From assembly GCA_050613775.1 (NCBI GenBank), contig JBODTK010000125.1, forward strand, positions 1 to 64,000: a DNA stretch of 64,000 nt. Direction: 5' to 3'. Origin of the DNA: Neocallimastix sp. 'constans' (lineage: Eukaryota). The position numbers and the translations under genes are program-made. Shown here piece by piece: positions 208 through 56,904 of this stretch. How positions within the stretch are numbered: position 1 is the first letter of the stretch; each line of letters begins with the position of its first letter. The notes below the pieces were generated by a model that made no database searches, was not told the DNA's origin, and saw only the letters and a list, made by a program, of their open reading frames with translations.

Positions 208-4346
<4,139 letters not shown>

Positions 4347-12998: not shown

Positions 12999-13029
<31 letters not shown>

Positions 13030-18241: not shown

Positions 18242-18653
18242 TTTTTTTTTTTTTTAGACTGAGATTAACAAGAGGGGAGGACAATAGGGCGTCTAATTTC
18301 TCCCTTAAATGTATCAAATTCTTATTGGATTCTTTAACATATTGTTTCGACGTCGACGAGGACCTCCTCTCTCTAAACAAGGCTAATACAAAAGACATTC
18401 CCTATGCGCCGCTTTATACGACGGGCTTCTTTTCAGTGATCTCTAAAACTAACATCAAGGCAGAAACAACTACGCCAATCCTCTCAAAACTGGAACACTT
18501 ACCATGGAGAGCTAACGCCAACTTCATTAATAAAGAAAAATACCCTAAGAAAATGAAAATTACCCAATATAAATTCAAAAGGTAGTCGCGGGGAAGATTC
18601 AGAAACTTTATCTGCGTTAGCCTATAGTACTAACAAACAAGTGGAATGACCGA
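18242..18653 (-). mobile_element. SINE-like retroposed element, copy 1 (degenerate head)
   Basis: GC-richer ~400 bp island; minus strand ends TCAGTCT+poly(A); flanked by direct repeat TATGAATAAAA (18229-18239 and 18654-18664); shares ordered blocks with the element at 37084-37517. Confidence 0.7.
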
Positions 18654-18948
18654 TATGAATAAAAATATATTTATTGAATATATTTTTATTCATATGTTAA
18701 ATTTATTTATTTATTTTTTATTCATTCATTCATTTATTTGTTTATTTATTCATTTATTTATTACTTCTTATTTTTTAATTATTATTTATTATTTATTAAT
18801 TTATTAACTTATTTATTATTATGAAAATTTATTTCTTATCTGCTCATAAAATTATTATTATTTTATTTATATATTATTATCATTATTATTATTTATTTTT
18901 ACTTTTTTTTCATTTATTCTTTTTTAAATATAAATAATTATAATTTAA

Positions 18949-19929
18949 CTACATAGTTTGAAGTGCCATGATACCCTTCTCAAATCCACTTTTTAATGAA
19001 TTTAATGTTTTTTCACGTTTTTTAACATATTCTATTTCATCTAAACAAGTTTGATAATGCTGTTTTAGCATGTTAACAATATAATTTTTATTATTAGCAT
19101 TCTTTTTATAGGCATTATAATCAAAAATTGTTGATTCATTTTCAGTTTCACTATTACTACCACTACCTGCAGAAACTGGTAATGGTTTTAATGTACCCTT
19201 TGATTGCGTTTTAGCGTTTGCAACTAAATTTGGATTAGATGTAGATGCGGATGGGGATATTGGAGGATAGGAACTATTCTTTTCATTATAAATAAGACCT
19301 GATTCTGGATTTTCAAAAATTGATGTTAATGGTTTACCAACAGAAGAAGGATTATCTTTATAAATTTTCTTAATAGTCATAGAAGAAGTTAAATTACCAG
19401 AAGTAAGAATTTCATTCTTCTGATTAATTACATTCTGCATTTCTGATGATTTTTCTTCTTGTTTTGATTCATTTACATAGTCTTCTTCATCTTTTAATTT
19501 TGGACTTTCATATAATTTTTGACTGTCCGATATTATATTTAGATTTTCTTGGTCATCATTACTTGAATTAGTATTAATATTTTTACCATTTTTAGGACTA
19601 TTACTATTACTATTACTATTACTACTTGAACTATAATCTTTACTATCCTTAGTATCAAATGATCCATTACCAATATTAATAAGCGGTAAAACAGATGAAG
19701 TAATAGAAGAATCTTCTCTTTTATTTAAAGGAACTGTTAATAAAGTTTTTTTCTTTTTTTTAATATTATTTGTAGTAGAGCTCTCATCATGTAATGGAAT
19801 TAAATATTTACCTTTAATACTATCTTTATTATTATTATTGATACTATTACTTTTATTTTTGTTTTTATTATTGTTATTAGTGCTATTACTATTATAATTA
19901 TTATTATTATTGATGCTATTACTTTTATA

Positions 19930-19983
<54 letters not shown>

Positions 19984-22132
19984 TGTGTTATTATTGCTTT
20001 TATTATCATTATTATCACTATCATCACTATTTTTATTATCTTTTCTTTTATTCTTTATATTTTTTCCAAATATATTTTTATTATCTTGATGATTATCGCT
20101 ATTATTGGAGCCTAAATTTTTATTTTTTTTATTTAATCTAGAAAATTTATTAACACCAGCACCTGATAAGAATAATCCCATATTAAAGAATCTTTTTTTA
20201 TGTTTTTTTGCAACATCTTTAGTTGCAGCACTTCTGGTGTCATGAATAATTAATGTAATCATTTTAGTAGTAATAACAATTGATGGAAGAGAATATAAAA
20301 TTGGTGTTGCCTATTATTTTATTTAAAAATTAAAATATACTTAATATATTTACATATATTATTTTTATTTACTGCTTTAATGTCTGTTAATTATACTTAC
20401 ACCAAATGCAACAGTTGCCATGATTTTTGCGAAATACTGTTTTTTATTTATTATATAAATAAAATTTTAATATAAATATACATATAATAATATACCTAAA
20501 AAAATAATACAATTTTACTAACAGTATTAGGACTTTGGTCACCAAAACCTAATGTGGTCATTGTCATAAATGTATACCAAAAAGCATCAAGATTGGATTG
20601 TCTAATTTATTTTCAATGCATAATAAATTTTATAAATATTACATTTTATTATAAAAAAAAAAAAAAAAAAAAAAAAGATCTATAAAATAATAATAAATTA
20701 ACATACAATTCACAGGATAAACTATTTTCATTAATTGTTCCATTTTTATATTGACGTTTCCAATTCTATTGTTTTAAAAAAAATTTTTTTTTTAAATAAC
20801 AAATGCAATTTAATAATAATATATATATTATAATTATTAAAATTAATATTTACATAATTATATATAATTATTTTAAACAAATAAAAACAAATAAAATTAA
20901 TATAATTTTTTATAATTATATATATATATATATATATATATTAATTTTCATACTTGTGAAGCTTCATCCAATGTACATTTTGATAAATCTGCATAAAAAA
21001 TAACTCTTGAACAAAATATCATGACAATAAAATAAAGAATAATAACAGATATAATTTCATAAATTGAATCCTTAGTAGCTCTAATAATAATATGAAAGAA
21101 TTTAGAAATACGATTTCTTAAATAATAAAAAATACTTAAACAAGTATAAAGACGACAACACATTAAGAGAAACGATATCAATCCATAATGATTTATATTA
21201 ATTAGACGACATTGTGGGAAAAATTCCTCAATAATAAAAGGAAGGCATCCCAAGAATTCCATTATATGAGGAATATTAATAAAGCCTTTGTAAAGCTTAA
21301 ATAAATTTTTAGTTACTTTAACATCTTTGTAATTAACAATTACATTTTTACCATCTTTCTGATTACCTCTTATAGTTGCTTCCAACATTGCCAAATGACG
21401 TCTTTTACGTATAGGGTATAAAATAACATCTGCAAGAAAATAAAGAGATAACTGTATGAAGAATACTAATGAAACTATACGCCATGCCTTTCTTTCTGAT
21501 TCTGTATCTTGTGTCTTAAGTTGTGTTGAATAGCATTCCAAAAAAAATGAAAGATATAAAATAATAGCATGATATATATTAAAAACAGTAGCCAACCAAG
21601 ATTCACGTGGACTATATATTGCATCAGTAAAAGCATGATTAAACATTTTTGATATATGATATTGAAGATTGGTAGGCTCATCCATATCTCTCGCTAAGGT
21701 TGGTTGACTCTTGCTCATACCACCACTTTTTAATGGTGTATGGTCATCTGATTTTAATGGAATTGTTTTATGTTGTAAATGACTTGTTTTAGTATCAATA
21801 GATAAATAATCAAAACTTTTTGTAAAATTATTACTTTTATCTGGTAATCTTAATACCGAATTCTTCCTACTTTTAAAATTATTTGATTGTTCTATAGCTT
21901 TTGTTTTTGCTTCTAATTTTGGGTCAATAAATAAATTTTTTAATTTTGTAATATCACTTTCTTCTTTTGATTCCTTATGACTTTCTTCAGTTAACTTGTT
22001 TAATGTATAATTATCAAATGAAGTAGTTGTAAGTTCAATTTTTGGTATATTAAATTTTTTACTAAATTCTTCCTGTGCCTTTAAGGCATCAGTATCTTCT
22101 TCCATTTTACCTTTTATATTTGAATCTGACAT
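18949..22132 (-). CDS. 6TM Kv-type cation channel paralog A (filter TTLGFGD)
   Basis: Exons 22132-20954, 20765-20707, 20601-20523, ~20436-20401, 20310-18949. Pore exon reads QSNLDAFWYTFMTMTTLGFGDQSPNT; S6 reads YFAKIMATVAFGATPILYSLPSIV. Confidence 0.9.
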
Positions 22133-25191: not shown

Positions 25192-26629
25192 ATGTATTCA
25201 CAAGCATATCAAGAGAAATATGTTAATGCAGCGAAAATGCTTGCACTTCAACATAATAATAGTCAACAAGGAATAAAAACAAAGCCAATTCGTAGTAGAA
25301 GTGGATATGGATTTGACGGCAGAATTAGAAATAAAAAATATGATAATCTTTTTGATAGTAAATTTGCAAAATATGTAAAGCATTACATGGAAACAGTTGT
25401 TATGCTATCAGTTTTGGCATTTAACTTTCAAACTTTACCAATATTACGTAGAACAAAGATCGCACGTGACATATGGCAATGGTTAGAAATATTTTTCACC
25501 ATAAATTATATTATAGATTGGATTATACAACTTTATTTCTATCCATATTATACAGATGATTCAAAATTAAAGAAAAAGAAAAAGGTACCACCAACCAAAA
25601 AGCAATGGGCTTACAAAGGTTATTTTGAAAGAATTAGTACATATATTAATTTACTTTGTTGTATTCCATTATTTTTAGAATTTATTTTTCCAAGCATAAA
25701 ATTTGACAATTTTGAAAAGGCATATTCAAATTCATGGATTATTTTAGTATTTCGTTCATTCCGTGCTATCAGATTCTTCCAAAATTTATATACTTCTCGT
25801 ACTACTTCAGGAAAGATGATGAATTATGTAATTTTATCATTAAAAATGGCATATCCTGGTATTATTTCATTTATTATGATTGTTGCAGTTGTTTTTCTTT
25901 GCTTTGCTGGAATTTATTATTATATTGAAATTACATATTGTGAACTTAACGAAAATAATGTAATATATTTAGTATTCATAATAATTATTATATAGAAGTT
26001 AAATGATTTTTATTTAATCAATCAATATTGCTAATAATGATAATAATAATAATAAATAGGAATGGATCTTTAAAGAGGATGGATTTGATTTAAAAGTTTA
26101 TAAAGGTGATGCTTGTTCAGTGTAAGTATTATTTAATTACTATTATAAAAAAAAAAAAAAAAATAGTAAAAAATAAATAAAAATAAAATAAAATAAAATA
26201 AAAAAAGAAAAAATCAACACAATATATATATATATTATCAATTAAATTATAAATAATATTACTATTAATAATGCTATAATATAAAGTCAAAGTATTATAG
26301 ATTCTTTATGGTATACTCTCATTGCACTTTCTACTATCGGATATGGTGATTATATTCCATTTTCGGTAAGTCATTAATATTTATAAATTTTATATGAAAT
26401 ATATAATATTTATTTTATAACGTCAATAAATATTTATATTTGAATATTCGAATACATAGGCTCTGGGCAGAGTAGCAACATCAATTGCTGTTATGGTAAA
26501 TATACATATTATAATACATTTTAAAAATATTGTGAATTTTATTTTTGCAATAATAATAATAATAATATAAAATACCTTATATTTATATATATATATATTA
26601 TAATTATTTAAAATATAATATATAAATAT

Positions 26630-28938: not shown

Positions 28939-29425
28939 TTAACGAATTGATTTTTTTTTTCTATGACTTATTGTATTAACCAAATTAATTGTTTTATCTA
29001 AACCATTCATTAAAAGATATAAGGTACCCGATTGTTCATCAACATCTGCAATTTCATTATCACAAAAAGCGTAATATTCCATGGATAATTTATAAAGTTC
29101 CTTACTAATTTCACTAACAGTCATATATTTAACTTCACCCATATTCATATCAACTTCAATCTTTCCTTGACTATTCTTACGGCTATGTCCAAAATTAGGA
29201 GATAAAGAATAAGGATTTAATTTACTTTTATCTTCACTAGCTTTCATATCTTTAAAAGTTACCGTTGACTTATTTAGGTTCTTTTGATCTTGAATAACTT
29301 TATTTAATTCTTCAATCTCTGGACCTTTATTCTTCATTAATTGTTTAGAGAGAGCATACTTTATAGTTGTTGTTGAATCTGATAATAATTCATTACTACT
29401 AATATTTTTGTTATTATCATTACTT

Positions 29426-29477
<52 letters not shown>

Positions 29478-31149
29478 CTTTAAATAAAGTTTTTATATTA
29501 ACAGGATCATTTCGTGAATTTGGTAAATGGGTTAATCCTGTATGACCACCAGGTCCAGTATTTATTGAATAATACTTCAAAAATGTATTAGTACTATTTG
29601 AAAAAGCTCTTGTAGATATAATATCCTTTAATTCCTTTTTAACTCTTTTTTTACGTGCTTTTTCTATCTTCTTTTCACATTCTTTAACAGCATTTTCAAT
29701 AGTTTCATTTTTTTTTAGTTGAACCAAAAATTCCATAAATTCAATGGTTAAGATGGAACTTGGAATTGGGAAAATCATAATTGCAAATATAATTGTAAAT
29801 CCAACAACAATTTTACCTTGAGCTGTTATTGGAGTAGTATCACCATAACCAATACAGGCAGTGGTTACTGCACCCCACCAATAGGAATCAATAATTGAAT
29901 TACTAAAATATAAAATATAAAACCAAATTATTAATTTAAATAATATTAATAAATTATCAATAAAAATAATGAATTAATATAAATATATAAATCATAATTG
30001 GAATTAGTACTTACACAAGACACTCCTCAGTTTTATTATTAACAACTCTAAAATATTTCTTTTAATAATAAAATTATTAAATAATTATAATTATTTATTT
30101 TATTAGAAATATTAAATAATTTATTATAACTATTTAAAATATCAATAATAATAATAATAATAATATATACATTTATATATTATATTTACCTCGGTTGTTG
30201 AGTCAAATTCACAATCATATGTTTCTGCAAAGAAAAAAAAAGCACTGAAAAACATCATAGTCCATAAAACTAAAATAGTTACTGTAAAAAAACCATCAAT
30301 AGAATTACTTAATACTTTAATTACTGATGACATTTGAATAATTTTCACAAAACGAGTATTATAAAAATAATAAATAAAACGAAAAATACGGGTATATCTT
30401 ATAGCAGTTGGTATCCAATTAATATAAGAACTATAAGTAAGACTTAATTTTGGAAAAATTAATTCAATAAAATATGGTGTTATACCTATATACAATTTAA
30501 TTTGAAATCAAAAAAAAAAAAAAAAAAAAAAAAAAAGTATCAATAATAAAATAATAATTTGATATTAATAATAAATTTAATTTAAAATTATAATAACATT
30601 ACATACAAAATAAAATATTGTATATATAATCCTTTATCTTTTTAAAACAAAAAAACAATATTTTAATAATGAATACTTACTTATTAAATTATTAATTTCA
30701 ATTTTACTTTTAAAAAACCTAAAATAATGAGTTATAGATGAAGTAAGTATTTCACGTTGTCTTATTGAATGACCTTTTCGTGAACCATCACTCATTGCAA
30801 TGTAAGAATAGTCGATATCACTATTTAAATTTTTATGAAAATATACATCAAATTCCTTTTCACGTCCATTTATTGTAATACTGAAAAAAGTGTATAAAAT
30901 GTAGCGTAATAATAAATCAATCCCTAAGTAAACAGTAATAACAATTTCTACAATTTCTAAAATATCTTCTTCTTTTTTATCTGAATGATATTGTGGTAAA
31001 GTAGAAACGTATAATGCATAAATAGCAGCAATGATGAAGAAAAAATTTATATAATTTATTACATTTAAAAATTTGTTTGTTGAACATAAATCATCATTAT
31101 ACAATTTTTGAATTGCTTTATCTATAAAAGATTTCTTTTTTGATGGCAT
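28939..31149 (-). CDS. 6TM Kv-type cation channel paralog C (filter ACIGYGD)
   Basis: Exons 31149-30681, 30485-30190, 30058-30015, 29902-28939. S4 AIRYTRIFRFIY; pore/S6 NSIIDSYWWGAVTTACIGYGDTTPITAQGKIVVGFTIIFAIMIFPIPSS. Confidence 0.92.
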
Positions 31150-31910
31150 TTTCTCTACTATATCTTTAACATTGAATATATACTCTATACTTTTAAATTT
31201 TTTTTTTTTTTTTTTTTATTTATCTATTTATTTATTTTTTACTTTTTGTTTTTTGTTTTTCGTTTTGAATTTTTAATATTTTATTATTATTATTATTATT
31301 GTTGTTTCATTTGATTAATCAAATAAATTTCAAAGATTTCCTAATATATTAAAAATAATATTAATATTAATTACATATTTAAATAAATATATTCAAAGAA
31401 AATATAAAAAAGTTTTTTATAACAATTAAAAATATATCTATAATAATTAAAAATTTTAATATTTATGAACTATAGTTTTCTATTTTATTTTGTTTTGTTT
31501 TTTGTTTTTTCTTTTAATTTTTTTTTTTTTTTTTTTTTTTTTTACCTTCTTTAAATTTGTTTAAAATAGGTTAATCTTCTAAATTAATTATCAAAATATA
31601 ATTAACAATTAATTTTTTAATTTTACTATTATATGTAAAATATATAAATTTTTATTTATATATTTTTTCTAATTAGATTTTTATTTTATTTTTCTTTAAA
31701 TTTCCCAATTTTTTTTTTTTGTTTGTTTGTTTGTGTGTTCTTTCTTTATTTCCTTTTTATTGATTTATATATTATATTATATTATATTTATTTATTTATT
31801 TAATAATTTATTTATTTTTATTATATTATTTTTTTATATAACATAAAAGTTGGAGTAAAAACAAATAAAAAAAATATTTAATAGGAATATTATTAAATTA
31901 TATTAATTAA

Positions 31911-31960
<50 letters not shown>

Positions 31961-32856
31961 TTTTTTATTCATTTATTTATATATTTTCTATTTATTTATT
32001 TATTTATATTATTATCAAAAATTTATTTACATAAACTATATATTTAATAATAATACTTTAAAAATATAATAAAATTTCGAATTACTGTATATTTTAATTA
32101 TATTGCATTATTAATTAATTTATTTAAATAGTAAAGTAATCAATTATTTTATAAAATGCATATAATAAAGTTTTCTTCATATATTAAATACTAATTATAT
32201 ATTATAATATATTATTAATATATAAAATTAAATTAAATCTATTTAAAAAATTTTAAATAAAAAATACACAAAAAAAATTAACTACAGTTTTATATAAAAC
32301 TGTAATTATATTAAATTACATTATCAATAAATTAAGATTACAATGTAATATATTATCCAAAATATTTTTTTTAATTTAAAAAAATTATCAATCTAAATAA
32401 ATATAAATTATAATAAATAATTAATTTATACTATAAAATTTTAGTGTTGTGGCTTGTTTGATTATGTACGATTATTTTAAAGATATAGAACTTGTTCATA
32501 ATGAGTTTTTATTAATTTATTAAAAAAAAAACATTTATACATAATAGAATATATTTTATTTATATTATTTAAATTTTATTAAATAAATAATTTCCCATAT
32601 AAAAAAAAAAACTATTGTGAATTAATTATTGCTATTGTAAATGGTGTTTGATGATTATTTTAATTTAGATAATAATTTCTTAATGAAAGCAAAAAAAAAT
32701 TAAATAAAAAAAAAGATTATTTAATTTAAACTTCTTTATTATATAAATTACTAAGTAATTATTATAATAAAAACGTTATTAATATTTAATAATAAATATT
32801 AATATAATCATTTTTTTTAAATATATATATACTAATTTATTTATTAATTAGTTTTG

Positions 32857-35440
32857 TTATACATTTTGGTTTGCCTTAATTTTACGAATCTGGTTAATAC
32901 TTTTTTCGAAGTACTTCATTAAAAGATATAATGTTCCTGATTGTTCATCAACCTCTGAAAATTCATTTTCACATTGGGCATAATAGTCCATTGATAATTT
33001 ATATAATTCTTTACTGATCTCTCTTACAGTCATATACTTAACTTCACCTAATTTAAATTCAACTTCAATTTCCCCTTTATCATTTTTTCGATTTTTTACA
33101 GTAGAATCAGTAGAATTATATGAATCTCCACTTCCTTTTCCTTCCATTCCAAAAGGTCTTGAATATTTTGGTTGCGATTTTGTTGTTATTTTATTTAGAT
33201 ATTGTTGATTTTTAATAATTTTATTAAGTTTTAACATATCTGGATTCGTACTTTTTAGATTCATTAATTTATTTCCTAATCCATATTTAATAGTTGTTGT
33301 AGGATCATCCAATAAAATTTCACTTGATTTAAGAATTTTACCATTATTCATATTTGTATTATTATCATTACTAAAAATCTTCGAATTTATAGGTTTTAAA
33401 TATTCACTAAGTGAATTTGATTTTTGTTTTTGACTGTCATTAAGGGAGTTTGATTTTTTAGATTTTTGATTGTCATTAAGAGAGTTTGATTTTTTTTGTT
33501 TTTGACTATCATTAAGAGAGTTTGATTTCTTAGATTTTTGATTATCATTAAGAGAGCCTTTATCTAATGAATAACCCAATGAATTATTACTTTTTTTTAT
33601 TTTAAAAAAATCAATAATATTAGTCGGTTCATTTCTATTTAAACTTTTATTTGAATTACCGATGGAAGAATTTACACTATTATAAAGAGAATCATGTATA
33701 TTATAATATTTTATAAATGTATTGCCATTATTTTGAAGATTTTCAGATGATATAATATTAATAAATTCTTTTTTAAAATTCTTTTTTTTTGCTTTTTCTA
33801 TTTTATTTTCACATTCAATTACCGCCTTGTCTATGATATCATTTTTTCTCTTTTTCATAATTAAATCCAAAAATTCTATTGTTAAAATTGCATTTGGAAT
33901 TGAAAAAATCATATTAGCAATTAATACAATACATCCATTAACTATTTTTCCTTGGAAGGTTGCAGGAGTCAGATCACCATACCCTATACACTGAATAGTA
34001 ACTACTGCCCACCAATATGAGTCAATAATTGAATTACTTTTGTTGTTGTTGTTGTTGTTATTTTATAATAATATTATTATAATTAAATTTTGAATTTTTT
34101 GAAAATAATTTTTATATTTATAATTTTATATATTTATAATTTTATATATTTATAGATATATATAAGCAATATTTATAAATAATTATTATAATTTATAATA
34201 TGTATTAGTATTTTTATTTTAGTATCAAATAATTAAATTTAATGCTTAAAAAAAAGAAATATTAAAAAAAATACACTCGACACTCTTCAAGTTCATTTTG
34301 GCTGTTATATCTATAATATTTCTATTTAATAATTATTGATATATTATTTAAAATATATATTAAAATAAAATATAAAATTAGGAATTTATATATAAAAACA
34401 ATAAGAAGGTAAATAAGTATATAAAATAATTATCATATAACTATAAATGAATAATACTTCTGTTTGAGTATCAAATTCACAGTCATATGTTTCGGCAAAG
34501 AAAAAATATCCAGAAAAAAAGATTATACCCCACACAGATAACATAATTGTAGATATAATGCCTTCCTTTGAATTTTTAAATACTTGTAATAACATATCTA
34601 ATTTTAAAAATTTTGAAAACCTTGAGTGAATTATATAATAACCAAAACGTATTAACCGAGTATACTGTAAAACAGAAATTATAATACTAAGCTTTGAATT
34701 ATTATATATTTCACTTTGACTTTTATTAATAATCATTCTAGCAAATAACGGGGTAATATCTAATATTTATATATTAAGAGTCATTTAAATATATATATAA
34801 ATATATATACAATTATAATAAAAATTGATTATAAATCAAGTATAAAAATAAATTTTTATTTTATATATATAATATGTTTTAAATAATTATTCATTTCTAT
34901 ATTAGTATATAGTATATATTAATCAGTATTTAATCATAATAAAAATATAATATAATTACTTAACAAGCATATAATCTCCATTTTATTTAAAAAAAACTTA
35001 ATCAAATGTAACAAGGTTTTCTTTTTTTTTTTCTCTTTTTTAGTATTATGTTTATTAATGACATTTTTTATTGTAATAATTCTATATTGTCTTTCACTCA
35101 AATTTAAAAATGAAGCTTTTTCATTATAGAATTCATCCATTCGATTATAAGTAGTTATATCAAAAAATGTATATAAAAAATATCTAATTGAAATTTCAAG
35201 TATATAATATATTGTAATTAAGTATTCAATAATTGTGTATTTTACTTCTTGATTCTCTCGAAAACTTGGAATTGAAAATGCATAAAAAATATATGAGGCT
35301 ATTAATGTCACAAAAAAATTTATAAAATTTACTAAATTTAGTATGTAATTTTGTGAGCATAACTGACTATCATATAAAAGTACTGTTAAGACATTTATAG
35401 TTTGTTTAGCTATATTAACATCATTATTTTTTGATGACAT
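32857..35440 (-). CDS. 6TM Kv-type cation channel paralog D (filter QCIGYGD)
   Basis: Exons 35440-34960, 34759-34458, 34321-34275, 34036-32857. S4 VLQYTRLIRFGY; pore/S6 NSIIDSYWWAVVTIQCIGYGDLTPATFQGKIVNGCIVLIANMIFSIPNA. Closest paralog of C (shared FFFAETYDCEFD and GEVKYMTV.EISKELYKLSM). Confidence 0.92.
33406..33557 (-). repeat. Coding 36-bp tandem repeat (about 4 x SLND[N/S]QK[S/Q]KKSN) in channel D C-terminus
   Basis: ORF 32857-33912 translation shows SLNDNQKSKKSN-SLNDSQKQKKSN-SLNDNQKSKKSN-SLNDSQKQKSN-SL. Confidence 0.9.
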
Positions 35441-35547
35441 CTTTTATAATTAACAAATAGTAATGCTTGTATATATTTTACAACGATTTGATTTAAATTA
35501 TATTTTATAGGAATTCCTATATTTAAAGTGAAATGCATAAATTTAAG

Positions 35548-35583
<36 letters not shown>

Positions 35584-35964
35584 CATTGACTAATTTATTA
35601 CTACTATATAGATATATATTGATAAATGATATATTTATTGTATTTAAATCAATTATATATAAATTCTATAAATAATTGATTTTGAAGAGCAATATTAATT
35701 ATTGAATCATACAAATTAATATTTATGTCATGTTAAATAATTAATTATTTAATCAAATTGTATCTTCTATTGGATTAATTGCTTTTCCAATTATATTTTT
35801 TTTTACGATTGTTCAAATAATTCAAATAATTCCCTTTGAATATTTAAAAGTCAATCCATATTATTAAATATTATATATATTATCCAGATAAAAAAAAATA
35901 ATAAAAATAAAAATAAAACAAAAAAAAAAAAATAAAAAATAAATAAATAAAATAACACAAAAAT

Positions 35965-35999
<35 letters not shown>

Positions 36000-37083
36000 T
36001 TAAAATAAAATTCAAAGTCTGTAATAAATATATAATAAAGTTTTCAATAAAATAAAATTATAAAAATAATAAAGTTAATATCTACTATAAAAAAAAGAAA
36101 AAACTCACCCATAATTAAAATCAATTTTAAATATTATAATAATTTTTAAAAAGGGAAAAATTTTTTATATAAGTAAACTTTATATTTTTTTATATTTTCA
36201 TATGTTAATTTTTATAAATTTAAAGAATTATGAATAATAAATAAAACTAAAGAGAAATAAAACAGCAAAAGTAAAATTTACTAATAATAAAACGAAAACT
36301 AATATATACATTAAATTTTAATATTGTTTTTATTAAAACTTTATATTAAAAACCATCATTATATATTATATTTAAATAATGATAATCTTAGAATATAATA
36401 GTTATTTATATTATTTAACTTTGAGCTGTTTTTACTCAATTACTTTATATATATTAAATTAATATTTAAATTTCATCTTTGTATTAAAACAAATGGTCAA
36501 AACTGCTGTGATTTTATCAACAAACAATGCATAAATATCGACAAATATATGCAAATCATACCTATTATTGTTCAAGGCATTCCATAACCACAACAATTAT
36601 TATTAATATTATTATTATAAACAAAATTTAATTAATAATAAAGAAATTTTTATATATTATTTTATTCTATTGGTAATTATAAAAATTATATTTATCTTTT
36701 TTATATTTTTAAAAATTAATAATTTTCTTTTTTTTTAATATTAATATATTTTTATGGAAAAATAAATAATAAATATAAAAGAAAAACTGATGATGATAAT
36801 AATAAAAAATAATAAATAAATAAAAATAATTTCAATTCATTATTATTTATTATTTATCATAAAAATTATAATATATAAAATTATATATGTATTTTTAAAT
36901 TCAGTTATATTTTATAAATATATCATTTTGTATATAATGATATATTATCATAATAAATATAAAAAAAATAAAATACAATGAAAAAAAATAATTTAGAAAA
37001 TTCTCAAATTATTATATTTATACAAATATTTTGGATTATTACTTTATTATTATATACTTAATACTAATTTTTTTTATTATAAA

Positions 37084-37517
37084 TTTTTTTTTTTTTTTTT
37101 TTTTTATAGACTGAAGACTTTGGTCTTCCCCATATAGTAATATGGGTGTATGATTAACTGCCATACCGGTACGGCGTCGACGCTCTCAACTCCCCATAAG
37201 CAAAGAAACTCCATATAGAAGCACCCTACGCGATCCTCGAGGGAAAGCAGAGCCAACTATAGGTGGCGTCCTTGCCATCCCAGAGGAGCTGGACACTGTA
37301 AATCCTCTCAGACAAGGCTTACGCAATGGGATTCTAATAGTGTTAGAAATATAGAAAACTTAGAAAGTATACCTACCTGAGTATCGTTTAACCCCTAACC
37401 TTTCACGCAAAACCCAAAGGGAAAAATCGTGAAGATATGATACTTGTGGGGGTCGATCCAGAGACCTTTGGTATGATAAGCCAACGACTTAACAACCCAG
37501 GATAAGAACTGGATGAC
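37084..37517 (-). mobile_element. tRNA-derived SINE-like element, copy 2
   Basis: Minus-strand head TTGGC-TTATCAT-ACCAA-AGGTC-TCTGG-ATCGACC has tRNA anticodon-arm/variable-loop/T-arm spacing with a B-box-like GGATCGACC (37451-37459). 3' hairpin GAAGAC-CAAA-GTCTTC, then AGTCTAT+A22. 14-bp TSD TTTTTTATTATAAA at 37070-37083 and 37518-37531. Confidence 0.82.
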
Positions 37518-37652
37518 TTTTTTATTATAAAAATTACAGAAAAAATGTTTCAAAATAAGCAATACAAACATTTTATTTCATTTTATTTACTTATTTTATT
37601 TATTTGTTTATTTTATTTATTTATTATTTATTTATTTATTATTTATTTATTT

Positions 37653-37684
<32 letters not shown>

Positions 37685-38536
37685 TTTTATTTATTTATTA
37701 TTTATTTGTTTGTTTATTTATTATTTATTATTTATTTATTTGTTTGTTTGTTTACTTATTATTTATTATTTATTATTTATTTGTTTGTTTACTTATTATT
37801 TATTATTTATTATATTTATGTGTTATTTATTTATTTATTTATTTATTATTCTATTATTATATTATTATATTTTGTTCATTTATATATTTATTTATCTATC
37901 TATTTATTTATTTATTTAAAAATTAGTTTTACAAATAAATTTATCTTTATATTAATTGTATTACCAATATACATAATTAAATAAATATTAAATAAATTTA
38001 ATATATTAATATATAAACATATATGAAATATTTCAATAATACAAAAAAAAAATAAAATAAAATTATAATTTTATAATAAGTTTTTTTTTCAAAAATTAAA
38101 AAAAAAAAAAATAATAAAAAAATAAAGTTAAAAAAAAACATAAATAAAATTATCAAAGCAAAGCATTAATATAATTTAAAATAGCAAATTTGATAGAATT
38201 AATGATTTTATTAAATAGGTTTAAAAAATATAATACTAGTATTTATGTTGGTTGTATATAACATTGAATTTTGTGATTAATTCCACATTTTTTTTTAACG
38301 AAGATTAATTAATAAACGAATATATATTTATATTCTTAATTAATTTTATTAATCCCCTATCAATTCAGATTTTTATATACAATCTATTAAACATACTAAG
38401 TTTTCTTCTTTATATAAATATAAATAATTATTTATTATAAATATAAAGCATAATAATACAATAGTACAATAACAACAATATTAATAATAAGATAATATAC
38501 AGTAAAAAAAAAAAATAAAAAAAAAAAAAAAAAAAA

Positions 38537-40020
38537 ATGAAAAATAATAAAGAACCCTTAAATGATATAAAAAAGCCAGTAACTCCACATCAATCCCATT
38601 TACCAAATTTTCAAGATTTACCAAATATTCCAATATATACTGGAACTTTTAATCAAGAATTAATTTTTCAAAATGTTAATGATTTAACCTCATCTAATAA
38701 TAATAATTTAAAAACTCAAACGTATGCTAGTTCGTCAACTTTAAATTTAAAAGATGAAAATATTTATCGTAATAAACGAAATATGTTAAAATCTACAGAT
38801 AGTCTTTTTAATAGTAATGTTAGTTTAAATTCACCTGCAAGACTTGGTGGTAGTAAATTATATTTACCAGGTAGTTCATATAATATGAATGGTAGTCGAA
38901 TGTTAGGACCAGGAGCTATTAGTTTAAATACTCTTAATATTGGAGCAAATGAAAATGATTTTTATAATGATGATTTAGATAATGAAAATTATTCATTTAT
39001 ACATCTTCTTAAAACTCAATTTTTCAAAATTGCAAGAAATCCAGAAAATTCAACCATTGCCACCTTCATGAATTATCTTATAACATTTGACCTTATTTTT
39101 CTTATTATTGCTAATTTATTATATTCAGAATTAATATGGAATCATACGAAAAGACAAGAAAGAAATTGGCACATCGTACTTTTTATTCTTAATGCATTTT
39201 TAACAATAGAATGGATTTATAACTTAATTTGTCATCCTCTTCAATTAGAATACAAACAAAAAAAAGAAAAAGAAAGAGAAAAGGAAAAGGAAAAAAATAA
39301 AGATAAAAATAAGAAAGGAAAAAAAGGAAAGGATGATGATTATTTCTTTTATTCAACTTATACTGATAAAAAAACTAAAAAGAAAAGATTTTACCATGAC
39401 TGGAAAGTTTATAAATTTATTGCACGTTATAAAGGTTATTTCAAATGGAAAGGAACAATTAATTTATTAGGTAAAAAATTTACTAAATTAAAACATTAAA
39501 GGTATATGTTATATAAGTACTAATTTAATATATTAATTATGATGATAATAATAAAATAGGTATTTTAGCATTTTATATTGAATTCTTTTTTCCAGAAACA
39601 CGTTTTCGTGGAAATAAGGTTTTATATTGGATACCAACCATCTTAAGTGAATTCCTTATTATTCGTTTATTCTTAAGAATTGTACATATGAAAAACGGTT
39701 TTGCTAAGCATTTTAATATTGTTGTTAATTGTTTAAGAGATAATAGTAAATTTTTATTCAATGTTTATACTATATTTTATTTGGGTGTATTAGTTATGTC
39801 ACCAATCTATTATCATAGTGAAATTTTTGGTTCTAAATTTGATCCAAAACAAGAAGTAAAAAATAATATATAAATATTTATATAATACATAAAATAAAAT
39901 AAAATATTTTTTTTTTTTTATTAATTCTAATAATATTTTATACAATTATTAATTTTTAAAGAAATGGATTTCAGTAGATTCTATGGGAGAAGAAAAAGAA
40001 GCATCTGTGTATGTTTTTTT

Positions 40021-40053
<33 letters not shown>

Positions 40054-40580
40054 AAATATTTTATATTGTATATTATTAAATTCTAGAATAATGTTAAATT
40101 AATAAAATTTAAAAAAAAAAATTTTTTTTCCTATTTTTTAAATTAATTAATTTGAAATAATTTTTAAAATAATAGGCATTCTATCGTTGAATCGTCTTGG
40201 TGGGCAGCGGTTACTATGGTTTGTATAGGTTATGGTGATTACTATCCATTCACGGTATATATTACATTTTAATAAAATATATAAATAATTTGAAATTCAA
40301 AAACTTTTAATAATTCTATAATATAAATGTAATATTAAATACTAAATAATAATATCGTCATTTAAAATAATATGTAGGTGCAAGGAAAAATAGTTGCTTT
40401 CTTTGGTATTATGGTAAATAATAAATATTTTTATATATTTGATTTTTATCAAATGAAAGAGTATAAAGAATTAAAAAAAAAAATAAAATAAAATAAAATA
40501 AAATAAAAGAGTTTCTTATTGAAAATAAAAAAATAAAGTTTATTAAAAACTAATTTATTTATTTATTTATTTATTTATTT

Positions 40581-40676
<96 letters not shown>

Positions 40677-41362
40677 TATTAATTATAATTGCAATATTTA
40701 TTATTTAGTTTTCTATGTTCTTATTCTTAATTCCAAACGCTATTTTATATGCTACATTTGCGGATGATTTCTCTAAAGCTAATCGTGATGAAGCAATTAA
40801 AAATGCAATTGATGAAAGTAATAAACGTTATAGAAAAAGACAAAAAAAAATGTTTAAAAAAAGAAGAGAATCAACTTTTCTTTCAAGTCCTTCGTCATTC
40901 AGACCAAGAAGAGATGAAGATATTGATAATCTTTATACTATACCAAAGAAGGCAAGTGCAGATGATCATGAAGGTCTTCCAGAAATTCTCTATATGATCA
41001 AAAATAATATTAAGAATGAAGAAACTACTATTGAAGATATTAGTGATAACGAAGAGGAGGTTCATATTTTAAAAGATAAAGATGAAGTTGAAAGTTTGAG
41101 TAGTCTTGATAGTGATGATAAATCAAGAAAAGAAAGTCATTCAAATCTTCAAACCACAACAGAAGAAACTAACACTATTAGAGAAATTAATAGTGAAAAA
41201 TTAGAGGAATTCTATGATAATAAAGAAGACATTATCAATGAAATGATGGATTATTGTGAAATATGTGATAAAGAACTTGTTAAAACTTCACAAAAATTAT
41301 ACACATTAACTAAGATGAAAAAATATTATGAAATTTTGATAAAAGAATATTCTGAAGTATAA
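38537..41362 (+). CDS. 6TM Kv-type cation channel paralog E (filter VCIGYGD)
   Basis: Exons 38537-39470, 39560-39855, 39962-40008, 40176-40254, 40378-40413, 40709-41362. Pore HSIVESSWWAAVTMVCIGYGDYYPFT; S6 VQGKIVAFFGIMFSMFLFLIPNA; S4 WIPTILSEFLIIRLFLR. Confidence 0.92.
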
Positions 41363-43983: not shown

Positions 43984-44268
43984 ATTAATTTAATACTTAA
44001 CCTATATAAAAAATGTAAATATTTAATTTTTGTTTATAGATTTTTTTTTTTTTTTTTTTTTTTTTTGAAGAATTAATAGTACAATTTATATGAAATTTAA
44101 AAAATATATAGTTGTAAAATATATATATATAAATAAGAATGAAATTGCTTTTATTAAATAATATAATTATTAATATTAATAATATATACTTTTTCTATAT
44201 ATTTAAATATATATATATTTTATTTACACATTTATTATTATATTTTCAGTAATATATATATTTCAAAA

Positions 44269-45639
44269 ATGACTCAACAACCAGAACCAATTATTTTAGA
44301 ACTCAACCCAGACCAAGGTTGTACTGAAATTGAATCTCTCTGTATGAATTGTAGAGAAAATGGTATTACTCGTTTATTATTAACTAAGATTCCATATTTC
44401 AGAGAGGTCATTATTATGGCTTTTGAATGTCCACACTGTGGTTTCAGAAATAATGAGGTTCAATCTGCATCAGAAATTTCAGAAACTGGTGTACACTGTA
44501 CTTGTCAAATTAAAAATTCTAAAGATTTAAGTAGACAAGTATTAAAGGCTGAAACAGCCACTGCTAGAATTGATGAATTAGATTTTGAAATTCCAGCTGG
44601 TGCTCAACGTGGTGTATTAACTACTATTGAAGGTATTCTTACAAAGGCTATTGAAGGTCTTTCACAAGAACAACCTGTCAGAAAATATATGGATGAAAAC
44701 TTATATAATAAAATTCAAGCTATTATAGATAAATTAACTATTTATCGTGATGCTAAAGAACCTTTCACATTTATTCTTGATGATCCAACTGGTAACAGTT
44801 TCCTTGAAAATTTAAATGCACCAGCTATTGATCCACAATTGGAAGTTAGACATTACGTTCGTACAAAGGAACAAAATGAAGCTCTTGGTGTTGTTGCTGC
44901 TGCCAATCCAGAAGTTGAAAAGGAAGAAGAAGAAAAGAAGGATAATATTAACATTGACGTTGACGAAGTTATGCACTTTGATGCTACTTGTCCATCATGT
45001 AAGGCTCCATGTAGTACCAGAATGCATTTACTTAATATTCCACATTTTAAGGAAGTTGTAATTATGGCTACTACTTGTGATAGTTGTGGTTACAAAAGTA
45101 ATGAAGTTAAGGCTGGAGGTGCTATTGCTCCAAAGGGTAAGAAGATTACATTAAAGATGACGGATGAAGAAGATTTATCTAGAGATATTTTAAAATCAGA
45201 AACATGTGCCTTAAAGATTCCTGAAATTAACTTAGAATTAACTTACGGTACCTTAGGTGGACGTTTCACTACTGTTGAAGGTTTATTAGATCAAATTTAT
45301 GATGAATTAGATACCAAGACACCATTCACTAAGGGTGATTCAGTCACTCCAGAACGTAAACACAAGTTTTCTGATTTCCTTCATAAACTTGATGAAGTAA
45401 AAGAAATGAAGAGAGAATTCACTCTTATTTTGGATGATCCATTATCTAATTCTTATCTTCAAAATATTTATGCTCCTGATCCAGATCCAAACATGACCAT
45501 TGAAGAATATGAAAGAACCTTCCAACAAAATGAAGACTTTGGTATTAATGATATGGTTGTTGAAAATTATAATGAAAAGGGTGAAAGAATTAATCCAGTT
45601 AAAAATACTGAACAAAAAGTTGAACAAAAAGCTGAATAA
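44269..45639 (+). CDS. ZPR1: Zinc finger protein ZPR1 (two C4 zinc fingers plus A/B domains), intronless
   Basis: EIESLCMNC...TRLLLTKIPYFREVIIMAFECPHCGFRNNEVQ; second module CPSC...IPHFKEVVIMATTCDSCGYKSNEVK; GTLGGRFTTVEGLL; NSYLQNIYAPDPDP. Confidence 0.98.
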   Translation: MTQQPEPIILELNPDQGCTEIESLCMNCRENGITRLLLTKIPYFREVIIMAFECPHCGFRNNEVQSASEISETGVHCTCQIKNSKDLSRQVLKAETATARIDELDFEIPAGAQRGVLTTIEGILTKAIEGLSQEQPVRKYMDENLYNKIQAIIDKLTIYRDAKEPFTFILDDPTGNSFLENLNAPAIDPQLEVRHYVRTKEQNEALGVVAAANPEVEKEEEEKKDNINIDVDEVMHFDATCPSCKAPCSTRMHLLNIPHFKEVVIMATTCDSCGYKSNEVKAGGAIAPKGKKITLKMTDEEDLSRDILKSETCALKIPEINLELTYGTLGGRFTTVEGLLDQIYDELDTKTPFTKGDSVTPERKHKFSDFLHKLDEVKEMKREFTLILDDPLSNSYLQNIYAPDPDPNMTIEEYERTFQQNEDFGINDMVVENYNEKGERINPVKNTEQKVEQKAE

Positions 45640-47751: not shown

Positions 47752-48423
47752 ATGGATTCAAAACTTTTCATTCAAGCATTTTCAAAATTTGCTATTGGTG
47801 TTTTATTAGTTGCTGCTTTAATTTTCATACCAGCATGGAGTGTTTTATACTGGCAAGGTTGGCTCTTTATGGGATTATTATTTCTTCCAATGTTTTTAGT
47901 TGGTGTAGTAATGTTGTTTAAGTCACCTGGCCTTCTAAGAAAAAGGTTAAATAATAAAGAGACGGAAGAGGAGCAAAAAGTAGTTGTTATTTTTAGTGTA
48001 ATAATATTCGTTTCAACTTTTATTGTAGCTGGATTAAATTTTAAATTTAAATGGATTGTGTTACCTGACATTGTATCTTACATTGCATCCTTTATATTTT
48101 TAATAGGTTATGTATTATATGCCGAAGTTTTACGGGAAAATACCTTTCTTTCAAGAACTATTGAAGTACAGGAAAATCAACAAGTTATTGATACGGGTCT
48201 CTATGGTTTAGTTCGTCACCCAATGTATATGAGTACCTTATTTCTATTTTTATCCATTCCACTGATTTTAGGTTCACTTTTTTCATTTATTATTATGTTG
48301 ACATACATTCCTATTATTATAAAACGCATAAGAAATGAAGAAAAAGTACTAGCCGAAAGCCTTGATGGCTATACGGAATATATGAAACGTATAAAATATA
48401 GAATTATTCCTTATGTATGGTAA
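47752..48423 (+). CDS. Isoprenylcysteine carboxyl methyltransferase (ICMT/Ste14/PEMT) family membrane protein, bacterial-type, intronless
   Basis: Multi-TM 223-aa ORF with ENTFLSRTIEVQENQQVIDTGLYGLVRHPMY and RIRNEEKVL..LDGYTEYMKRIKYRIIPYVW family motifs. Confidence 0.9.
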   Translation: MDSKLFIQAFSKFAIGVLLVAALIFIPAWSVLYWQGWLFMGLLFLPMFLVGVVMLFKSPGLLRKRLNNKETEEEQKVVVIFSVIIFVSTFIVAGLNFKFKWIVLPDIVSYIASFIFLIGYVLYAEVLRENTFLSRTIEVQENQQVIDTGLYGLVRHPMYMSTLFLFLSIPLILGSLFSFIIMLTYIPIIIKRIRNEEKVLAESLDGYTEYMKRIKYRIIPYVW

Positions 48424-54428: not shown

Positions 54429-56882
54429 TTATTCATTTAACTTCCTTTGGATAATAGATGCATTTTGTTGAAAACGGTAATTGAATTCATCTGGCGTATA
54501 TGCTTCCATAACCGCTTGATAACGATTAAATACTTGTTCTGTAAATTTTTCAATATTCTTTGGTAATGTACTATTCGTATCATTACCTAAACATACTCTA
54601 CGATAGAGGAATAAAATATATTCATCTTTCGTTGGATATTTATGATAAGTGTCAACAAAATTTCCAAAATATTTATCAAATGATAAAATTGGTCCAGAAG
54701 GATTAATAATTTTACCTAATTCATCCATCCAAGTAATTCCAGGTTGAACTTGATAGAATGGACGACAAGTATTCATACTAATTTTAACATTTTTAAATTT
54801 TTCAACATTTTCATCCCATTCCTTCCAGAAATCAAGACCAGTTCCGGTAATATTGTTATTACTGTCATTTTCTTTATAACCGTTAATTAAGCTTTCAACA
54901 TTCATATCGGTCAAATTCTTTTGAACATCAATAAATTCAAACAACCATTCTAATTCATTCATTTTAATCTTACCATCTCTTACTGCATTGTAACAGAAAT
55001 TCGATAATTTTTGAATTAATTTTAATCTTTTTTCATCAGTAACTTCACCATCAATAGGAATATAGATTTCTCCACAAATACCTCCAGATTTCATTGGTGA
55101 ATCTTCATCAACATTTACTAATATCGTTGGATACTTAAGACCATTCTTATACACATCTAATAATTTTATATTTTTCTTAAAGTAATTGAGTAGATGAGAA
55201 AGTACTTCAATACGATTAGCAAATGATTGGAATTGATCAGGCAATTGAAGATCAAATAATTTTAAAATTTGTAATAGTTCCTTATAATGAATTAAATGAA
55301 CAAAGAATAAATTGGATTTTGGAGAAATCTTTGGAATTAAAAATGGTGAAATTAAACATGACCATGCTGCAGTAGGATAAAATACCTTAGTTTGAGGTAA
55401 ATTTGATAATCCACTTAAAGAAATGGAAGTTTTATAAGTTGAGAAACGATAAATTACTTGAGCTTCAATAAATGCTTCAATATCTTTTAAATAAGGAATT
55501 TCTCCATTTTTAATCATCAAATAAATAATAAAGAACCATAAATTCTTATCTCCAAGATTTTTTCCTCCCGTAATTAATTTCATTAAAGTCCAGTTAGCGG
55601 CATCAACATGTTCTTGATTTTCTCCTAACGGAATTGCTCCAATAATCTTTCTACGAGTGAAAGGTGATCTTCTAATTGGATTGGATGAACATAAAGAAGC
55701 TCGGTAATTCTTTAATGAAATTGCATGATCAATACAAGATTTCAATTTCTCGATAAATTCTGGAATATGTAATGCCGTCAAAGGACAATTAATAATTTTT
55801 TCCGTGACCACTTTATCAAATCCAACTAGAAGAGGTGTAAAATCATTAGAACTTGAAGTTTGTGAATTTTCATTTTCATCAATGGTAATTAAAATCATTG
55901 GATCAATTTCATTATCAATTGAAATTGGACATTTCCATTCACAATTTTGAATAGAAGATTCTACATTTAAATTTTGAATATTTTCAACTTCATTAACAGA
56001 AGTATCATCGGCTGTATATTCACGGAATGTTTGTAATTTATCCGCATCGAATATTTGCTTTAATCCACCGTCACACATTCTAATTAAGAGATTAATTCTA
56101 GATTGAAAATCTCCTTTTAAAACACTAGAAAAACAATGAACTACTTCTTTCATGGCTTCGTCATAATTCTTATCTTTCATAATCAATTCATCAATAATTT
56201 CATTTTTATTTTCCGATTTATTAGTATTATTGATTTTGATACGCTTATGCATTAAGATAATTGATTTTCTTAATTCTTTATCACCATCAGTTCCTAATAA
56301 TCTTGCCACTAATGCTCTTTCTAATGAATCATATTTACAATTAAATTCATCTAACGTATTAATGGAATCAATTTCTTCAATAGTTTTTAAGTCTTCTTCC
56401 GAAGTAGAAATAATTTGATCATCATGATTTGGTTTCTTAATAATTGTTCTACTGGCATTAAATCGGGTGAAAGGACATGAAACACTTAAATTAGCTTCAT
56501 TACCTAATAAATAAATTTCATAATATCTACACTTAAATCGATTTAAATTTTTTTGAATAGCAATATCTAAATCTTTGACTTCCGAATCCCAAATTTGTCC
56601 ATCAGAAATTAAAATAAGTTCATTATAATCTACTTCATCATATTTTTTAAATATTGTATCAAATAAGCATTTTGGATTTGTTCCACCATTACCATCCTTT
56701 TCTCTATTAATTCTCATATAATCCACCTTTGAAATAAATTTGGAAGAAGTATCCCAAATAATAATTTCATCACCTTCTTGATATTTTGAATTTAAAATTG
56801 TACGAACATTAGAATGATAAAAATCATCATTCCAAGTTGAACCACTGTAATCAATAGCAAAACACTTTGCAGCTCTTGTCAT
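54429..56882 (-). CDS. Intronless 817-aa protein with N-terminal vWA/MIDAS domain; baculovirus p94-like
   Basis: Long ORF with DYSGST (DxSxS), GNGGTNP and LILISDGQI MIDAS elements, followed by NLSVSCPF, CPIS and SPFTRR. The p94 resemblance is from recalled motif order and size, not from a search. Confidence 0.7.
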   Translation of the reverse strand: MTRAAKCFAIDYSGSTWNDDFYHSNVRTILNSKYQEGDEIIIWDTSSKFISKVDYMRINREKDGNGGTNPKCLFDTIFKKYDEVDYNELILISDGQIWDSEVKDLDIAIQKNLNRFKCRYYEIYLLGNEANLSVSCPFTRFNASRTIIKKPNHDDQIISTSEEDLKTIEEIDSINTLDEFNCKYDSLERALVARLLGTDGDKELRKSIILMHKRIKINNTNKSENKNEIIDELIMKDKNYDEAMKEVVHCFSSVLKGDFQSRINLLIRMCDGGLKQIFDADKLQTFREYTADDTSVNEVENIQNLNVESSIQNCEWKCPISIDNEIDPMILITIDENENSQTSSSNDFTPLLVGFDKVVTEKIINCPLTALHIPEFIEKLKSCIDHAISLKNYRASLCSSNPIRRSPFTRRKIIGAIPLGENQEHVDAANWTLMKLITGGKNLGDKNLWFFIIYLMIKNGEIPYLKDIEAFIEAQVIYRFSTYKTSISLSGLSNLPQTKVFYPTAAWSCLISPFLIPKISPKSNLFFVHLIHYKELLQILKLFDLQLPDQFQSFANRIEVLSHLLNYFKKNIKLLDVYKNGLKYPTILVNVDEDSPMKSGGICGEIYIPIDGEVTDEKRLKLIQKLSNFCYNAVRDGKIKMNELEWLFEFIDVQKNLTDMNVESLINGYKENDSNNNITGTGLDFWKEWDENVEKFKNVKISMNTCRPFYQVQPGITWMDELGKIINPSGPILSFDKYFGNFVDTYHKYPTKDEYILFLYRRVCLGNDTNSTLPKNIEKFTEQVFNRYQAVMEAYTPDEFNYRFQQNASIIQRKLNE

Positions 56883-56904
56883 TTTTTATTTTTCTTTTTC
56901 TTTT

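What the first reader, a model, noticed from the sequence alone, without database searches (positions are those of the whole stretch)
29839..40239. Three paralogs carry an HCN-like CIGYG selectivity filter on a Kv scaffold
Seen: filters are ACIGYGD (29839-29859), QCIGYGD (33973-33993) and VCIGYGD (40219-40239), versus STIGYGD in B (26330-26350). Known: the canonical K+ filter is TxGYG, with the Thr hydroxyl forming ion site 4; CIGYG is the signature of HCN channels, which are weakly K+/Na+ selective. These proteins keep Kv-like WW..VT and GYGD..P.T..GK context and lack a CNBD. Inference: convergent Thr-to-Cys substitution, retained in three diverged paralogs, possibly reducing K+ selectivity.
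Basis: partly seen in the sequence, partly recalled or inferred. Interest (0 to 1): 0.8.

Follow-up and report, generated by a model that had tools for sequence, protein, structure and literature searches.

The report
Gut-fungus potassium channels with cysteine filter
Three of five neighbouring potassium-channel genes in an anaerobic gut fungus carry cysteine where potassium channels almost always have threonine in the ion filter, which likely makes them slow-conducting, non-inactivating but still potassium-selective channels rather than relatives of heart pacemaker channels.

Summary
The window (Neocallimastix) holds five tandem Kv-like 6TM channel genes; three have Cys at filter site S4, two keep Thr. 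Cys is present in 47 of 47 gut-fungal ortholog pores (10 distinct motifs) and the K3 pore is under purifying selection. It is rare elsewhere: 0 of 187 pores in the nearest other relatives, and 0 matches in prokaryote genomes against about 51,000 for the Thr pattern. The proteins are Kv-like, not HCN: no CNBD, Trp (not HCN's Phe) at the W434 site, best hits Kv2.1. The match to CIGYG is loose, since orthologs read CLGYG or CTGYG. The Cys needs one or two changes inside one gut-fungal clade; their order is unresolved. Reduced selectivity is the weaker reading: published Kv2.1, Kv3.1, Kv1.5 and Shaker mutants lacking this Thr stay K+-selective but lose conductance and change inactivation, although MthK and NaK2K mutants do lose selectivity. 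No function was measured here. Verdict: new variant of a known kind, a natural version of a much-studied lab mutation.

The parts
18949..22132 (-). K1: Kv-like 6TM channel gene, 5 exons, 904 aa, filter TTLGFGD (Thr kept), most degenerate S4
   Evidence: Model; residues 1-487 identical to spliced product P0229
25192..27822 (+).
   Evidence: Model; residues 1-327 identical to spliced product P0219, 80% to N. lanati KAG4089917.1
28939..31149 (-). K3: Kv-like gene, exons 30681-31149, 30190-30485, 30015-30058, 28939-29902; 590 aa; filter ACIGYGD; S6 PIP motif; S4 RRRYYR
   Evidence: Model; 81% to N. lanati KAG4089918.1; same junctions contiguous in intron-free ortholog L001; no identical spliced product found
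29854..29856 (-). K3 Cys codon (TGT) at filter site S4 (Shaker T442 / KcsA T75 position)
   Evidence: register from alignment to Kv2.1
32857..35440 (-). K4: Kv-like gene, exons 34960-35440, 34458-34759, 34275-34321, 32857-34036; 669 aa; filter QCIGYGD
   Evidence: Model; N. lanati KAG4085400.1 differs by 1 mismatch and one 23-residue gap in exon 1
33988..33990 (-). K4 Cys codon (TGT) at site S4
38537..41362 (+). K5: Kv-like gene, 6 exons (pore exon 40176-40254), 681 aa; filter VCIGYGD; turret cysteine pair lost
   Evidence: Model; identical to N. lanati KAG4085402.1
40222..40224 (+). K5 Cys codon (TGT) at site S4

Best explanation
K3, K4 and K5 are intact, conserved Kv-like channel genes of anaerobic gut fungi with cysteine at the innermost filter site, and they likely form potassium-selective channels of low conductance that would not inactivate and would respond only weakly to voltage. 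Shown: five tandem paralogs from one ancestral gene; Cys at site S4 in three; the Kv pore-helix scaffold (W434, W435, T439, Y445, D447 sites) kept; no CNBD; fewer S4 charges than relatives. Inferred from published mutants: the outer filter keeps its Kv shape, sulfur holds K+ at site S4 less well than the Thr hydroxyl, so conductance falls and the link between gate and filter inactivation is cut, while K+ over Na+ preference is largely kept. Speculative: a steady, non-inactivating K+ conductance that rises with external K+ would suit K+-rich gut fluid (gut K+ level is recalled, not from a call).
For: Gene integrity. One clade and shared turret introns in all five: (1000/1000 LG, 968/1000 Dayhoff-6, 100/98 C20). 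Cys 47 of 47 ortholog pores, W434/W435/D447 sites 47 of 47, T439 site 46 of 47. dN/dS K3 vs L001 0.21 whole, 0.065 pore to S6, dS about 1 (one pair). Best solved relative Kv2.1, E 4e-14 for the K3-type and 5e-10 for K5. Kv2.1-T377A and Kv3.1-T400A stay K+-selective, have lower unitary conductance, do not inactivate and gain current with external K+ (PMC7231921). KcsA T75C lowers K+ binding at S4; TREK-1 T157C loses filter gating and gives a linear current (PMC4771873). HCN has Phe at the W434 site (PMC9614928). S4 columns: 2-4 basic residues of 6 in the five paralogs against 5-6 in 168 of 183 comparator pores.
Against: No current was measured for any gut-fungal channel. The Kv precedents are Thr-to-Ala, not Thr-to-Cys. 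MthK T59A and NaK2K T63A are non-selective and simulations of KcsA T75A lose selectivity (PMC11251424). The two papers disagree on KcsA: one says T75C did not reduce selectivity, the other knows no selectivity measurement on T75X. The preceding residue (T441 site) is also changed to Ala, Val or Gln in 40 of 47 pores, a double change the mutant studies did not test. A fungal Shaker-like channel gave no current in oocytes or yeast (PMC7678990), so these may not conduct alone. Direct RNA evidence for K3 itself is missing.
Confidence: 0.55

Rival explanations
1. Losing the S4 hydroxyl plus the preceding Thr leaves a three-site filter that passes Na+ (or NH4+) as well as K+, giving a depolarising cation channel on a Kv scaffold.
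For: MthK T59A and NaK2K T63A non-selective; KcsA T75A less selective in simulation. T441 site changed in 40 of 47 pores. The near-absence of Cys elsewhere (0 against about 51,000) shows ordinary K+ channels do not tolerate it. A filter Cys at the next position makes C. elegans UNC-58 Na+-permeable (PMC11513965).
Against: Four Kv channels stay selective without this Thr. Cys is not what makes HCN non-selective. Scaffold residues are kept.
Confidence: 0.2
2. The Cys paralogs are modifier subunits that conduct little alone and co-assemble with the Thr paralogs K1/K2, giving mixed Thr/Cys filters with tuned conductance and gating.
For: Tandem cluster kept across genera by accession order. All five share a C-terminal Y..C..E helical motif. 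In a TRAAK simulation one Cys gave 11.4 and two gave 1.25 permeation events per microsecond. Reduced S4 charge.
Against: The Cys paralogs keep the pore scaffold better than K2 does, and K3 keeps a PxP gate motif. Paralogs are only about 20-40% identical. No co-expression data.
Confidence: 0.15
3. The ring of four thiols at the inner mouth of the filter is a redox, oxygen, sulfide or soft-metal sensor in a strict anaerobe (can coexist with the best explanation).
For: Cys is invariant while its neighbours vary, which suggests selection for Cys itself rather than for loss of Thr. [quoted passage not shown]
Against: No direct evidence. In HCN structures the sulfur points away from the pore. Cys is also the closest steric stand-in for Ser/Thr.
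Confidence: 0.07
4. The proteins are HCN/CNBD-lineage channels that lost the CNBD and inherited CIGYG.
For: The five-letter match; no HCN sequence was in my trees.
Against: No HCN among the top 60 shown in three PDB sequence searches, including a pore-only query. Trp at the W434 site, Asp after GYG, short S4 and Kv-type S4-S5 linker. One clade with Thr paralogs, weakly sister to glomeromycete Kv-like proteins. Orthologs read CLGYG and CTGYG.
Confidence: 0.02

Closest known systems
Fungal Shaker-like K+ channels (SKC; PMC7678990) / fungal Kv-like clades (PMC7576140)
   Same: 6TM, G[YF]G[DE] pore, no CNBD. Piromyces sp. E2 gene 11147, listed in that paper's sequence table, is the K5 ortholog and reads VCIGYGD.
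   Different: Cys at site S4, fewer S4 charges, five-gene tandem cluster. The passages I saw do not mention the Cys.
Kv2.1 and the Shaker-type Kv1-4 channels
   Same: Best sequence and fold matches; WW pore helix, T439 and D447 sites, S4-S5 linker, PxP in K3.
   Different: No T1/BTB domain hit; Thr-Thr replaced by x-Cys; 2-4 S4 charges; a turret hairpin with a cysteine pair.
Engineered site-S4 mutants: KcsA T75C, TREK-1 T157C, Kv2.1 T377A, Kv3.1 T400A, Shaker T442A, MthK T59A
   Same: Same position, loss of the S4 hydroxyl.
   Different: Here it is natural, fixed across genera and under purifying selection, with the preceding Thr usually changed too.
HCN channels (CIGYG)
   Same: Cys at the same filter position; usually Ile next.
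   Different: No CNBD, Trp instead of Phe at the W434 site, Asp after GYG, short charge-poor S4.
C. elegans UNC-58 K2P (TCGYG; PMC11513965)
   Same: Natural cysteine inside a K+ channel filter.
   Different: Different position (one residue later) and different family; shown to pass Na+.

Membership tests
Kv-like 6TM channels (Pozdnyakov 2020 sense) | Six TM segments with S5-P-S6 pore | tested here: met
   PF00520 above cutoff in K3, K4 and K5 orthologs; AF2 model of a K3 ortholog, pLDDT 77.8
Kv-like 6TM channels (Pozdnyakov 2020 sense) | No CNBD | tested here: met
   No PF00027 at E up to 0.05-0.1 in 13 plus 9 proteins scanned, covering the C-terminal exons of all five genes
Kv-like 6TM channels (Pozdnyakov 2020 sense) | Sequence affinity to Kv rather than CNBD channels | tested here: met
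   Top 60 of 171 and of 188 PDB hits are Kv, KCNQ or bacterial K+ channels
Kv-like 6TM channels (Pozdnyakov 2020 sense) | Canonical TxG[YF]G filter | tested here: not met
   CxGYG in K3-K5; a consensus, not an absolute rule in that paper
Kv-like 6TM channels (Pozdnyakov 2020 sense) | Charge-rich S4 / voltage gating | tested here: inconclusive
   2-4 of 6 basic positions; K5 alignment has a gap; gating not measurable here
Kv-like 6TM channels (Pozdnyakov 2020 sense) | K+ selectivity | not testable with these tools
   Needs electrophysiology
Metazoan Shaker family Kv1-4 | N-terminal T1 (BTB_2) domain | tested here: not met
   No PF02214 hit in full-length orthologs or first exons
HCN | C-linker and CNBD | tested here: not met
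HCN | Cys at first filter position | tested here: met
   47 of 47; full CIGYG in 36 of 47
HCN | Phe at the Shaker W434 site | tested here: not met
   Trp in 47 of 47; HCN state from PMC9614928
HCN | Long S4 with seven or more basic residues | tested here: not met
   HCN state from PMC7576140
HCN | HCN-type fold / grouping with HCN in a tree | tested here: inconclusive
   Fold lists headed by Kv chains, but 71 of 86 alignment rows behind the model were Kv-like; no HCN sequence was available for the trees

The most novel reading that the evidence does not exclude
Gut fungi evolved the first natural Kv-scaffold channel family with a thiol in place of the site-S4 hydroxyl, and it has turned into a Na+/K+ non-selective or redox-gated cation channel, reaching HCN-like permeation without HCN ancestry, with Thr-bearing sister paralogs in the same cluster as built-in controls.
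Probability: 0.25. Interest if true: 0.8.

Novelty: new variant of a known kind. Interest (0 to 1): 0.5.

Why it matters
The site-S4 threonine is among the most conserved residues in K+ channels, and the literature disagrees on whether losing it costs selectivity (Kv mutants no, MthK and NaK2K yes). These genes are natural, selected versions of that mutation on a Kv scaffold, beside Thr-bearing sister genes, so they make the question testable without crippled lab mutants. A 2024 paper states that its authors found no filter cysteine in voltage-gated K+ channels (PMC11513965); this is a counter-example. They would also be a first handle on membrane physiology of rumen fungi. Interest is held down because equivalent mutants are already well studied and nothing about function is shown here.

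Tried and rejected
No own genome was held, so other channel genes of this genome were not counted. No reads could be laid, so splicing rests on identical or orthologous spliced products; one search lists 9 runs on record as RNA holding 0.40-0.51 of the words of the K3-K4 stretch, unlaid and so not used as evidence. First fold on a 12-row alignment failed (pLDDT 36.5). Single origin of the Cys: my first trees supported a K3+K4+K5 clade (92 FastTree; 87/57; 85/81 without K1 and 42% of bootstrap trees without K2) but they kept the Cys column; with it dropped and a finer alignment support fell to 46/1000, 20/1000 and 3%, so I withdrew that claim; AU tests reject neither arrangement (p 0.112; p 0.152). 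Complex prediction of K3 and K2 C-termini: no answer, score 0.02. HCN chains were absent from the displayed fold lists, which excludes nothing. Atlas searches gave only generic Ion_trans clusters. Metagenome scan gave 2 loci of 394 candidates, neither with neighbouring paralogs examined. Motif search of papers returned 82 papers, 30 listed, none about channels by title; one checked was an antibody peptide. Earlier-findings look-ups were empty. Rfam found nothing in the window. First S4 tally used wrong columns and was redone.
Full report
Observation. The four motifs are exactly where stated, and a Cys pore pattern matches three times in the window and never in 100 shuffles. The window is 16% GC, intron-rich DNA of an anaerobic gut fungus: K5 is identical to Neocallimastix lanati KAG4085402.1 and K4 nearly identical to N. 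californiae ORY61874.1 and N. lanati KAG4085400.1.

Anatomy. There are five, not four, 6TM channel genes in about 22 kb, each with a GT-AG model and one open frame (alternative splice solutions existed, the chosen ones match database products). K1 (TTLGFGD) and K2 (STIGYGD) keep Thr; K3, K4, K5 have Cys. Products identical to K1 residues 1-487, K2 1-327 and K5 1-511 come from JGI contigs of 1.4-2.7 kb and run across the intron sites, so I infer they are transcripts. L001 is an intron-free K3 ortholog, contiguous at all three junctions. K3 itself has no identical spliced product, and no reads could be laid. All five genes share two turret introns; K3/K4/K5 share an S3 intron; K1/K2/K5 share two post-filter introns. 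Accession order shows the cluster in Piromyces sp. E2 (11145-11147), P. finnis and a second Neocallimastix copy.

Conservation. Of 64 gut-fungal proteins fetched, 47 contain the pore (17 are fragments without it); all 47 have Cys, though they collapse to 10 distinct 16-mers. Named sources span Neocallimastix, Piromyces and Anaeromyces. The next residue is Ile 36, Leu 7, Thr 4, and the preceding one Ala 16, Val 15, Gln 9, Thr 7, so the Cys, not CIGYG, is the conserved feature. W434, W435, Y445 and D447 sites are 47 of 47, T439 46 of 47. dN/dS for K3 against L001 is 0.21 overall and 0.065 from pore helix to S6, with dS near 1 (one pair, simple counting, AT-rich).

Rarity. A profile search of 1.84 billion representatives gave 9,381 hits; I saw the best 150. 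Of the 146 new entries, 141 had a recognisable pore; of their 187 pores 184 have Thr, 2 Leu, 1 Ser, 0 Cys, although the profile favoured Cys. In one genome for each of 185,579 prokaryote species the Cys pattern had 0 matches and the same pattern with Thr about 51,000 stretches, an estimate from 1/64 of the collection; 120 of 120 sampled translate as pore motifs. The pattern needs Trp, Thr and Pro at fixed places and misses other scaffolds. In Table S2 of PMC7576140 (whole table seen) all 8 CIGYG rows of 302 have a CNBD; none of about 125 CNBD-free rows (my hand count) starts with Cys. Eukaryotes outside these samples are untested.

Kv, not HCN. Best PDB hit is Kv2.1; a pore-only query also lists no HCN in the top 60 of 208. 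Pfam finds Ion_trans only, no CNBD and no T1 domain. An AF2 model of a K3 ortholog (pLDDT 77.8) matches Kv2/3/4 best (Foldseek E 5e-8; Z 14.1, rmsd 5.8, 247 aligned), but most alignment rows were Kv-like, so this is not independent. S4 has 2-4 basic residues at six columns against 5-6 in 168 of 183 comparators.

History. The five paralogs form one clade (1000/1000, 968/1000 after Dayhoff recoding, 100/98 under C20), weakly sister to glomeromycete Kv-like proteins (89/80; names). Branches are long. The usual unrooted shape is (K3,K4), K5, (K1,K2), which the introns fit. The root is not resolved: with the Cys column dropped a Cys-only clade gets 2-5% support and K5-basal trees are commonest, yet AU tests reject neither. 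So the Cys is one gain, a gain at the base with reversion in K1/K2, or two gains; not three. Thr to Cys needs two base changes (genetic code, own knowledge).

Mechanism. From passages of PMC2766643 and PMC9614928: Cys-to-Thr makes HCN4 less selective, and HCN's odd filter is tied to residues outside it, with Phe at the W434 site. From passages and the Discussion of PMC7231921: Kv2.1-T377A and Kv3.1-T400A stay K+-selective, lose conductance and inactivation, and gain current with external K+; Shaker and Kv1.5 behave alike on selectivity. From passages of PMC4771873: T75C lowers K+ at S4 in KcsA and T157C removes filter gating in TREK-1. Against: passages of PMC11251424 and PMC12658365 report non-selective MthK T59A and NaK2K T63A and lower selectivity in simulations. 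Since the gut-fungal proteins keep the Kv scaffold and are closest to Kv2.1, I favour K+-selective, low-conductance, non-inactivating, weakly voltage-dependent channels (0.55) over reduced selectivity (0.2), modifier subunits (0.15), a thiol sensor (0.07) and HCN descent (0.02). All functional statements are inference.

In print. The proteins are annotated as voltage-gated potassium channels in NCBI. The K5 ortholog of Piromyces E2 is in the sequence table of PMC7678990 (passages and part of its table seen). PMC5168858 mentions gut-fungal voltage-gated K+ channels in one line (passages). PMC11513965 says no filter cysteine was found in voltage-gated K+ channels (passages). Searches for CIGYG + selectivity filter, Neocallimastix + potassium channel (28), chytrid/fungi/Kv-like (47), motif variants (77), anaerobic fungi + zoospore + ion channel (89) and Neocallimastigomycota + Shaker/selectivity filter (113) showed no paper describing this Cys; these were judged from listings, the library lacks most subscription papers, and figure alignments are not searchable. 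PMC3537762 and PMC4411761 were seen as passages only. That PDB 1S5H, a hit, is KcsA T75C is recalled; one search shows only that it is a site-4 mutant. Shaker numbering other than W434, T441 and T442 is recalled.

Verdict. Real, conserved and very rare; a new variant of fungal Kv-like channels. The HCN likeness is a one-residue coincidence and the selectivity claim is the less likely outcome, but it is open and directly testable. Interest 0.5.

Noticed in passing
turret exons of K1-K5 (e.g. window 30015-30058 and flanks): A cysteine pair brackets a predicted beta-hairpin turret in K1-K4 and their orthologs; both are lost together in K5 and 3 of 3 orthologs checked, as expected of a disulfide.
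   Followed up: partly
last exons of K1-K5: All five paralogs end in a helical segment with a Y..C..E motif despite low overall identity; possible assembly domain.
   Followed up: partly
window 26287-26365 (K2 pore exon): The Thr paralog K2 has Tyr at the W435 site and Ala at the T439 site, so its filter scaffold is more altered than that of the Cys paralogs.
   Followed up: no
P0066 residue 1099 and P0202 residue 130: Two unnamed Kv-like proteins carry TCGYG, the UNC-58-type filter reported as unique and Na+-permeable.
   Followed up: no
P0066, P0067, P0071, P0077, P0084: Kv-like proteins with three or four pore repeats in one chain; the survey passages I read describe two-repeat Kv-like channels.
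   Followed up: no
window 47752-48423 (+): Intron-free PEMT/ICMT-family methyltransferase ORF with 29-36% identity to bacterial plasmid genes; possible horizontal acquisition (0 of 3 genomes).
   Followed up: partly
window 54429-56885 (-): 818-codon intron-free ORF with no Pfam hit at E 0.01.
   Followed up: no
window about 37110-37500 and about 18260-18660: Two GC-rich islands (up to 49% and 42%) next to poly-T/A runs, unrelated to each other and single-copy in the window; possibly mobile-element remnants flanking the cluster genes.
   Followed up: partly
window 2303-3112, 12512-13021, 44167-45639, 61469-62170: Ordinary neighbours: Utp14, CLASP, ZPR1 and a LURP-one-related gene.
   Followed up: yes
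P0038, P0047, P0218 (N. lanati KAG4089917-19): Neocallimastix has a second copy of at least K2-K3-K4 on another scaffold, 63-81% identical to this one, whose K4 reads CTGYG.
   Followed up: partly
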